Part shown: piece after piece, positions 10,910 through 12,110 of the stretch | Layout: each line of letters opens with the position of its first letter | Numbering within the stretch: position 1 is the stretch's first letter | IMG/VR virus record: IMGVR_UViG_3300022696_000117 | Location: 1 to 64,000 of that record | DNA: 64,000 nt | Reading direction: 5' to 3' (one strand) | DNA from: a virus | The notes under the pieces: generated by a model | Told to the model about the DNA's origin: nothing | Seen by the model: the letters and a program-made list of their open reading frames with translations, nothing else | Database searches by the model: none | Translations under genes and position numbers: made by a program

Positions 10910-12110
10910 CGGGCGTATTTCAGCCGACGCTCTACCAAGCGAAGACAACACGAGCTAAACCCGATGGCCCAAGGACAGAAATCGTCCTTTGAGGTCGTGA
11001 GCCGGTCTTTCCCTTGCGGTACTCGCACCGGACGGACAAAGCCGCACCTCCGAGGGCCGGGGGCGTTCACTCGCTATACACCCTTGCACACCAAATACAG
11101 AGCGCAGAATCGGGATATCACTTCAGGAATCCCGCAGCTCCTTTTGCGAATACTCAGGCGTTCGCGACTACGCTTGAACTTTCACCCATTGGGCTACTCG
11201 CCATCAGCGTGTCCCGACGGCCCGGACCAATGTCCATTGGAGGCCACAGCGTTTCCTGCCTATACCCGGCTTCACTGCACAAAGAGACAGCGACGCACAC
11301 GTTTAGACGCTCAGGAGCTTTGTTTTCCCAGTCGGATCAATCCTCGATCCTTTGCTCTGGTTCCTCTTCTGTGACCCCGAAGAGGGCTTGATACGCCGTC
11401 ACCGGCATACCGGGGCACACGTCAAGCCCGACGGGCAGGGGCTTATAACATCCCAAGCAGGGAAGCGATTATGTCGCCGCTCACCTTTATTTCAGTGTAC
11501 AGATCCATAGGGGTGAGGTCCCCGACCGGTGATATCGTCACCAATCGCTCAGTGAGACCAACGAAAACAGATTGTTGACCCATCGGATAACGACCCGAGA
11601 TCTCCTGAGAAATCTTCCGCCGCCGGATGCCTTTTTACGACCCATGCCGAACCAGAAATCACATGGGCAAGATCAGGAGCATATTAGCATATGCTTATTT
11701 ACGTCCACCCAGACATTGGACGGCTTTTCTCTCCACAAGCAGGGGATGATACATATGGGGGTTTCGATACCATGAGAAGCGTATCAGTGAGGGTGAATCC
11801 GGTAATCCGTACCGGCCGCGGCATCGTTTTACTGTAGGGGTGGTACTCAGCATTCGCACAGTTGGCCTACGATGAAAGGCCCAGAGAATCCGCTCAGGGG
11901 GGTGGATACCAGGTTCGACCTTACTGATGGCAGGTAAGCCGGGATCAGTGAGACCGGGGTATCCGGACCGACGAGACCATGTATTTGCGAGCGCAGACCA
12001 AACATGGTCAATTCTGCGATATTGTTTATCGCCGGTGTCGAGGTTTTCACCTCATTAAGACCTTCAATCTAAATTGAAGGCCTTAATGAAGCCCCGTCAT
12101 GGAGACGGGG
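10910..12110 (-). ncRNA. candidate large structured non-coding RNA or leader (~1.2 kb)
   Basis: No credible CDS in a gene-dense phage; many hairpins; two loop-E-like AGUA/GAA motifs (11002-11031 with a GCAA tetraloop; 11170-11210). Confidence 0.55.

What the first reader, a model, noticed from the sequence alone, without database searches (positions are those of the whole stretch)
10910..12110. Candidate ~1.2-kb structured non-coding RNA leading the early, putatively anti-defence, operon
Seen: the largest coding gap in the window, at normal GC, full of short stems. On the minus strand there are two loop-E/sarcin-ricin-like elements, CCGGUGCG-AGUA-CC-GCAA-GG-GAA-AGACCGG (11031-11002) and ACGCU...AGUA-GCCC-AAU-GGGU-GAA...AGCGU (11210-11170). 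CUCACUGA recurs three times (11549, 11784, 11945), twice as GGUCUCACUGA. It is bounded by a 17-bp stem (12052-12089) and the 29-bp stem at 10.9 kb. Known: loop-E motifs and GNRA loops typify large bacterial/phage ncRNAs such as GOLLD and ROOL. Inference: promoter-like repeats, then a large RNA, a processing stem and an AcrIII-1-like gene could form an undescribed early RNA-based system (scaffold, antiterminator or defence decoy).
Basis: partly seen in the sequence, partly recalled or inferred. Interest (0 to 1): 0.85.

Follow-up and report, generated by a model that had tools for sequence, protein, structure and literature searches.

The report
Long untranslated stretch in phage early operon
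A real 1.25-kb non-coding stretch sits in the early operon of an orphan salt-lake phage, just upstream of an anti-CRISPR-like gene, but nothing I could test shows it to be a large folded RNA of the GOLLD/ROOL kind.

Summary
The gap (10862-12116) is real. It is the largest non-coding stretch in the window, has normal GC, and lies on the path of three tandem leftward promoter-like repeats. It is not coding: no frame has codon bias, no minus-strand ORF has a ribosome-binding site, no Pfam match appears, and the coding purine skew is absent. The one plausible 46-aa ORF gains a stop in a relative.

The 'large structured RNA' reading has little support. Rfam gives nothing. Folding energy is no better than in neighbouring coding RNA (z -2.2 against -2.1 to -5.4). 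The CUCACUGA repeats are at chance level. The two bounding stems are real, but similar long hairpins sit at every gene junction of this operon, so they are not specific ends of one RNA.

Two hints remain. The AGUA-hairpin-GAA modules are enriched (post-hoc P about 0.003). A few variants in a metagenomic relative keep hairpins through wobble pairs.

No homologue could be fetched, so covariation is untestable. The downstream 225-aa gene does have an AcrIII-1/Crn2 fold, but its homologues in other phages lack any such upstream gap.

Best reading: an untranslated cassette of the early transcript, possibly released at the flanking stems, function unknown. Interest is modest.

The parts
12668..13091 (-). 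Three tandem leftward promoter-like 33-nt repeats (TGTTAC-N16-GATAAYAGTAA) at 13091-13059, 12937-12905 and 12702-12670
   Evidence: 3 exact matches against 0.07 expected, and none elsewhere in the window. The sigma-70 scan flags the 12703-12675 copy.
12606..12644 (.). Long hairpin or palindrome (15 of 17 pairs) in the 5' leader of the 147-aa gene
   Evidence: z -6.5 on plus, -4.7 on minus. Its two mismatches become G.U pairs on the plus strand, not the minus, so it may act as DNA, for example as an operator.
12117..12560 (-). 147-aa predicted membrane protein gene, directly upstream of the gap; an orphan
   Evidence: translation, hydrophobic N-terminal half. No Pfam or PHROG match. No homologue among 5.8 billion proteins.
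12050..12091 (-). 19-pair hairpin (17 Watson-Crick plus 2 G.U on the minus-strand RNA) with a 4-nt loop and no U-tract; the upstream boundary of the non-coding RNA
   Evidence: z -6.5 to -7.2 on minus against -4.8 to -5.0 on plus. The terminator scan does not call it.
10909..12049 (-). Body of the untranslated stretch (about 1.14 kb)
   Evidence: Stops in all six frames. No positive codon score. No SD-led ORF on the minus strand. No Pfam match for any stop-to-stop ORF. No coding purine skew. No Rfam match.
11170..11210 (-). AGUA-GCCC-AAU-GGGU-GAA module (sarcin-ricin / loop-E-like sequence signature) within ACGCU...AGCGU
   Evidence: The outer helix is separated from the module by a 7/6-nt internal loop.
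11002..11031 (-). AGUA-CC-GCAA-GG-GAA module closed by CCGGU/ACCGG; it has the sarcin-ricin loop architecture (bulged-G signature plus GNRA tetraloop)
   Evidence: The strict version of the pattern is found only 3 times in 128 kb.
11528..11542 (-). Short hairpin GGUGA-CGAUA-UCACC. In a relative (about 5% substitutions plus indels over 505 nt) it carries two wobble-preserving substitutions and two indels confined to the loop
   Evidence: (variants at 11528 and 11530; indels at 11532 and 11536) mapped onto the fold.
10671..10908 (-). 29-nt inverted arms (25 Watson-Crick + 2 G.U + 2 mismatches on the minus RNA) enclosing the 50-aa gene 10709-10861; the downstream boundary of the gap
   Evidence: 87% over 30 nt; in runs X3 and X4 the arms are joined by a 9-nt loop (GTTTTTCAA) and the 50-aa gene is absent.
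9962..10639 (-). 225-aa gene: zinc-ribbon-like N-terminus, an AcrIII-1/Crn2 (DUF1874)-fold core at about residues 40-150, and an unknown C-terminal domain
   Evidence: Alignment A2, AlphaFold model and Foldseek against PDB. Pfam and PDB sequence searches are negative.
9909..9948 (.). Long hairpin (14 of 16 pairs) between the 225-aa gene and the parB-like gene
   Evidence: In a relative, a replacement breakpoint at 9927 falls in its loop.

Best explanation
The 1.25-kb stretch is an untranslated cassette inside the early leftward transcription unit of an orphan temperate phage.

Shown: it is non-coding on both strands. It lies downstream of three tandem promoter-like repeats with no recognisable intrinsic terminator in between. 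It is bounded by long stem-loops of 19 and 27/29 pairs. Similar long stem-loops sit at every other gene junction of this operon, and gene content in metagenomic relatives changes exactly at those stems.

Inferred: the stretch is co-transcribed with the 147-aa membrane-protein gene and the AcrIII-1-fold gene. The flanking double-stranded stems act as processing or stabilising sites, of the RNase III type known from phage T7 early mRNA. Cleavage there would release an RNA of about 1.1 kb made of ordinary local hairpins, including two sarcin-ricin-like hairpins, rather than one ornate global fold.

Its role is most likely at the RNA level, either as a cis-acting leader for downstream early genes or as an abundant early non-coding RNA like the roughly 800-nt one of vibriophage ICP1. 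No specific function is demonstrated.
For: Non-coding. The one ORF with a positive crude score (11443-11583, 46 aa) acquires an in-frame UAA and mostly non-synonymous changes in the relative seen in run X2 (my reading of the variants).

Position in the transcription unit: promoter-like repeats; no terminator-like site beyond chance (4 found, 3.1 expected).

Stems. The two stems that flank the gap pair better on the minus-strand RNA, because their mismatches are G.U there.

Cassette behaviour. One joint is 10699->10884 with a 9-nt loop in runs X3 and X4. A replacement runs between 9927 and 10671. Contigs of run X1 turn unlike at 11943 and at 12040.

Not a freshly decayed gene: the gap has no codon bias in any frame, and it lacks the A>T skew that every coding sense strand shows.

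Retention: pieces of the gap at 95-99% identity occur in four runs from four studies.

Hints of constraint on RNA hairpins: of 6 listed substitutions at predicted paired positions, 4 keep the pair through wobble on the minus strand only. By my estimate about a quarter would be expected to do so. The indels at 11532 and 11536 fall in a loop.

Two AGUA-hairpin-GAA modules, P about 0.003 post hoc.

Precedent: the ICP1 ncRNA in a 1-kb ORF-less space (PMC7567579).
Against: No direct evidence of a transcript. The 'RNA' runs are contigs that also hold 57-78 kb pieces and cover genes and gap alike, so DNA carry-over cannot be excluded.

Folding energy is no better than in coding controls.

G.U asymmetry is not consistent across the operon's hairpins: the 12606-12644 stem pairs better on the plus strand. 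The stems could therefore be DNA-level sites for recombination or protein binding.

The runs were found through words of this very stretch, so its apparent conservation is biased by ascertainment.

The variant sample is tiny: 9 substitutions of the 24 in that contig were listed.

RNase III cleavage is inferred only from stem length.
Confidence: 0.4

Rival explanations
1. One reading: a discrete, about 1.2-kb, highly structured non-coding RNA of a new family, comparable to GOLLD, ROOL or OLE. It would act as a scaffold, antiterminator or defence decoy together with the neighbouring anti-defence gene.
For: A large non-coding stretch at coding-like GC in a compact phage genome. Two sarcin-ricin-like hairpin modules on the transcribed strand. 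Wobble-preserving changes in a relative. A neighbouring AcrIII-1-fold gene. Large phage ncRNAs exist (PMC12286853 and PMC7567579).
Against: No Rfam family matches, even at E up to 10. No excess folding stability, either locally or globally. Internal repeats are at chance level. In the run-X1 contigs, the about 96-nt block (11944-12039) next to the 11945 copy of GGUCUCACUGA no longer matches the window; my reading is that the block was replaced and that copy lost. Homologues of the Acr-like domain in other phages have no such upstream RNA. No homologue exists in any searchable collection.
Confidence: 0.15
2. Functionless spacer: a remnant left where gene cassettes were lost or exchanged in a hyperplastic early region. 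It would be carried along because it lies between the stem-loops at which recombination happens.
For: The neighbouring cassettes come and go at the stems in relatives. No structural, repeat or antisense signal rises above background. All flanking genes are orphans or variable.
Against: No trace of former coding: no codon bias in any frame, no purine skew and no Pfam hit. GC is not relaxed towards AT, unlike the other intergenic stretches, which have GC 0.37-0.49. The gap is retained at 95-99% identity in relatives whose adjacent genes differ, although ascertainment bias applies. By general knowledge, phages rarely keep 1.2 kb of useless DNA.
Confidence: 0.25
3. A DNA-level element: binding sites for the phage ParB-like protein, for a repressor or host factor, or a recombination or packaging site. 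The TCAGTGAG copies and palindromes would be protein sites rather than RNA features.
For: Three same-strand TCAGTGAG copies lie within 400 nt. A parB-like gene lies 1 kb downstream. The 12606-12644 palindrome pairs better on the non-transcribed strand, which fits a DNA site.
Against: The repeat count is not above chance. One copy sits at the edge of a block that a relative has replaced, and appears lost there. The only consensus parS-like palindrome is elsewhere, at 14603-14618. Iteron and AT-rich origin-like stretches lie elsewhere, according to an unchecked first-reader note; GC is 0.37 at 17724-18206. There is no array of regularly spaced sites.
Confidence: 0.1

Closest known systems
[quoted passage not shown]
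   Same: A phage-borne ORF-less space of about 1 kb between protein genes. It belongs to no known RNA family and its function is unknown.
   Different: ICP1's RNA is shown by RNA-seq to be the most abundant phage transcript, whereas no transcript is demonstrated here. ICP1's RNA lies next to the lysis cluster, not in an early operon. No sequence similarity was detected to any phage record.
GOLLD, ROOL and OLE large ornate bacterial/prophage RNAs (Rfam; PMC12286853)
   Same: Size class (0.6-0.8 kb against about 1.1 kb). A phage or prophage setting for GOLLD and ROOL. Presence of GNRA and loop-E-type motifs.
   Different: No covariance-model match at any threshold. No tRNA neighbour. No demonstrated conserved fold. 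No excess folding stability.
RNase III processing stems of phage T7 early mRNA (established knowledge; not tested here)
   Same: Several tandem strong early promoters followed by a polycistronic early RNA, whose cistrons are separated by long double-stranded stems. The early region includes an anti-defence gene (T7 gene 0.3; here an AcrIII-1-fold gene).
   Different: T7 sites are about 20-bp stems with an internal loop, and they separate coding cistrons. Here one 'cistron' is 1.1 kb of non-coding RNA and one stem encloses a whole 50-aa gene. Cleavage is untested.
PeSL (promoter-early stem-loop) cassettes of T4-type phage hyperplastic regions
   Same: Stem-loops at the borders of small, variable early genes, where cassettes are exchanged between related phages.
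   Different: PeSLs pair each stem with an early promoter. Here the promoters are clustered at the head of the operon, and the stems are much longer.
Antisense immunity RNAs of P4 (CI), P1/P7 (c4) and N15, processed from the leader of an early operon
   Same: A non-coding leader region in the early operon of a temperate element with a P4-alpha-like primase. The short motif CUCACUGA is repeated three times, as seqA and seqC are in P4.
   Different: Those RNAs are about 80 nt long and complementary to leader or ribosome-binding sites. Here no complementarity to any gene start exceeds the shuffle null, and the repeats are at chance level.

Membership tests
Known large or structured RNA families in Rfam 15 (GOLLD, ROOL, OLE, HEARO, raiA, group I/II introns, riboswitches, CRISPR-DR and others) | Covariance-model score at or above the family's gathering threshold | tested here: not met
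   the only hit in the window is a tRNA-like element at 38756-38818; at E up to 10 over 10600-12300 there are only two noise hits, to eukaryotic snoRNA models (19.6 and 18.3 bits, against gathering scores of 36 and 100).
Structured non-coding RNA (generic) | Conserved secondary structure supported by covariation in homologues | not testable with these tools
Relatives exist only as short Logan contigs, whose variants were only partly listed.
Structured non-coding RNA (generic) | Folding energy clearly below dinucleotide shuffles and below the genome background | tested here: not met
   Core z is -2.2 (minus) and -2.5 (plus), against -2.1 to -5.4 for coding controls. The 150-nt windows average about -0.8, against a background of -0.65 with sd 1.4. 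Only the terminal stems stand out.
Sarcin-ricin / loop-E (bulged-G) motif | AGUA opposite GAA flanking a short capped helix, within a longer helix | tested here: met
   The sequence signature is present twice on the minus strand, at 11009-11023 and 11181-11198, with P about 0.003 post hoc. The three-dimensional conformation itself is not testable here.
RNase III-type intercistronic processing stems (T7 early type) | About 20 bp or more of nearly perfect dsRNA between cistrons on the transcribed strand | tested here: met
   A 19-pair stem at 12050-12091 and a 27/29-pair stem at 10671-10908, both better on the minus RNA. Actual cleavage is not testable here.
Antisense immunity RNA (P4 CI, P1 c4 type) | Extended complementarity to leader or ribosome-binding regions of the element's own genes | tested here: not met
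   The longest perfect complementarity to 227 gene starts is 13 nt, and the shuffle null maximum is 11-13 nt. The only longer match is trivial: a chance plus-strand ORF that overlaps the gap itself.
Protein-coding gene(s) or a recent pseudogene | Open frame with codon bias, ribosome-binding site, family match and purine-rich sense strand | tested here: not met
   By my reading of the indels, the 46-aa ORF 11443-11583 gains an in-frame stop in a relative.
AcrIII-1 / Crn2 ring nuclease (DUF1874), for the downstream 225-aa gene | DUF1874 fold | tested here: met
   AlphaFold model with core pLDDT of 86-96. The Foldseek top 10 are all DUF1874 proteins (8y7g, 8y7f, 2x4i, 2j85, 2j6b, 6scf), probability 1.0, target-normalised TM 0.58-0.66, E 8.5e-4 to 1.3e-2.
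AcrIII-1 / Crn2 ring nuclease (DUF1874), for the downstream 225-aa gene | Sequence membership (Pfam PF08960 or similarity to solved members) and the catalytic His in a GHxxT motif | tested here: inconclusive
   No Pfam DUF1874 hit at E up to 10. No PDB hit by sequence or by profile. However, G82-H83-P84-x-T86 is invariant in 15 homologues. The assignment of the catalytic residue rests on recalled literature.

The most novel reading that the evidence does not exclude
The stretch encodes a new class of large phage non-coding RNA, excised from the early transcript at the flanking stems. It would carry sarcin-ricin-like protein-docking hairpins and act in host takeover or counter-defence alongside the AcrIII-1-fold ring nuclease.
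Probability: 0.15. Interest if true: 0.7.

Novelty: new member of a known kind. Interest (0 to 1): 0.3.

Why it matters
If the stretch is made as a discrete RNA, it would add a second documented case, after ICP1, of a roughly 1-kb phage non-coding RNA outside the GOLLD/ROOL families. Here it would sit in an early operon next to a ring-nuclease anti-CRISPR-like gene, a setting in which a function could be tested. As things stand, it is an unexplained but ordinary-looking untranslated region in a phage with no sequenced relatives.

The better-supported results in this neighbourhood are two. The 225-aa gene has an AcrIII-1/Crn2 fold that profile searches miss. The early operon is punctuated by long stem-loops at which gene cassettes are exchanged.

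Tried and rejected
Homologue searches that found nothing useful:
- blastn against 50,697 phage records: no match.
- Flanking proteins as bait in IMG/VR: no relatives.
- Homologues of the 147-aa and ParB-like proteins: only the query itself, or chromosomal ParBs at 30% identity or less.
- Exact or gapped DNA patterns in IMG/VR: none.
- A 21-mer in JGI metagenomes: one hit, in the signal peptide of an aminopeptidase-like ORF, which is a chance match.
- A double-module pattern in 185,579 genomes: five hits, at least four of them plain repeat arrays in unrelated bacteria, none sharing anything with the gap beyond the pattern.
- Primase relatives at 34-45% identity: these lie on elements that share only the primase, and in some an integrase, with this phage, with no synteny and no similarity to the gap.
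- Primase, helicase and clamp against isolated phages: identity only 22-30% in the rows listed.

Transcription evidence: the sequencing runs are contigs. The 'RNA' runs hold 57-78 kb contigs and cover genes and gap alike, so they show neither transcription nor its absence.

Other readings rejected:
- Pseudogene or small-ORF readings.
- Internal domain duplication.
- Antisense targeting of gene starts.
- parS sites within the gap.
- Extra copies of the promoter-like repeat within the gap.
- tRNA or tmRNA.

Full report
Setting. The window is the first 64 kb of an 82,155-bp IMG/VR virus record. It is a temperate phage, with an integrase (PHROG 1), a terminase, tail genes, a P4-alpha-like primase, helicases, a sliding clamp and a ParB-like protein. 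It has no close relative among isolated phages: the primase, helicase and clamp reach only 22-30% identity in the rows listed. The finding lies in a leftward (minus-strand) operon. Three exact copies of a 33-nt promoter-like repeat (TGTTAC-N16-GATAAYAGTAA) at 13091-13059, 12937-12905 and 12702-12670 all point leftwards, with 3 found against 0.07 expected. The order downstream is a 147-aa membrane-protein gene (12560-12117), the gap, a 50-aa gene (10861-10709), a 225-aa gene (10639-9962) and a parB-like gene (9859-8906).
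Noticed in passing
window 9962-10639 (minus): The 225-aa protein has an AcrIII-1/Crn2 (DUF1874) ring-nuclease fold in residues of about 40-150, with an invariant G-H-P-x-T motif. Pfam, PHROGs and PDB sequence or profile searches all miss it. It is flanked by a zinc-ribbon-like N-terminus and an unknown C-terminal domain.
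   Followed up: yes
window 10671-10908: The 50-aa gene with its ribosome-binding site sits inside the loop of a 29-bp hairpin. In relatives from two runs (X3, X4) the arms are joined by a 9-nt loop (GTTTTTCAA) and the gene is absent, so a gene was inserted into, or deleted from, a hairpin loop.
   Followed up: partly
window 9909-9948, 10671-10908, 12050-12091, 12606-12644: A long stem sits at every gene junction of the leftward early operon, and replacement breakpoints in metagenomic relatives coincide with these stems. The operon behaves like a string of stem-delimited cassettes.
   Followed up: partly
window 12670-13091 (minus): Three exact copies of a 33-nt promoter-like repeat (TGTTAC-N16-GATAAYAGTAA) point leftwards in tandem. 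The middle and last copies bracket a 60-aa plus-strand ORF that has only a faint RHH-like Pfam hint (E 0.06).
   Followed up: partly
window 13190-14515 (plus): A 441-aa orphan protein is transcribed divergently from the early operon. Its only hint is a weak phmmer match to an RNA polymerase sigma factor chain (8x6g_H, E 0.018).
   Followed up: no
window 23421-25976 (minus); loci L004-L011: The 851-aa primase has 34-45% identical relatives, 223 of them at E<=1e-30. In IMG/VR these lie on records of 4-61 kb, two of them classed as proviruses, that share only the primase, and in three cases an integrase, with this phage. The replication module is therefore mobile.
   Followed up: partly
window 38756-38818 (minus): A tRNA-like element scores 32.7 bits in Rfam but is not called by ARAGORN. 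It lies next to the integrase gene (37535-38578) and is probably the attP-associated tRNA fragment.
   Followed up: no
window 14603-14618: A 16-bp perfect palindrome, TGTTCCACGTGGAACA, lies one mismatch from the chromosomal parS consensus. It is the only such site in the window.
   Followed up: no
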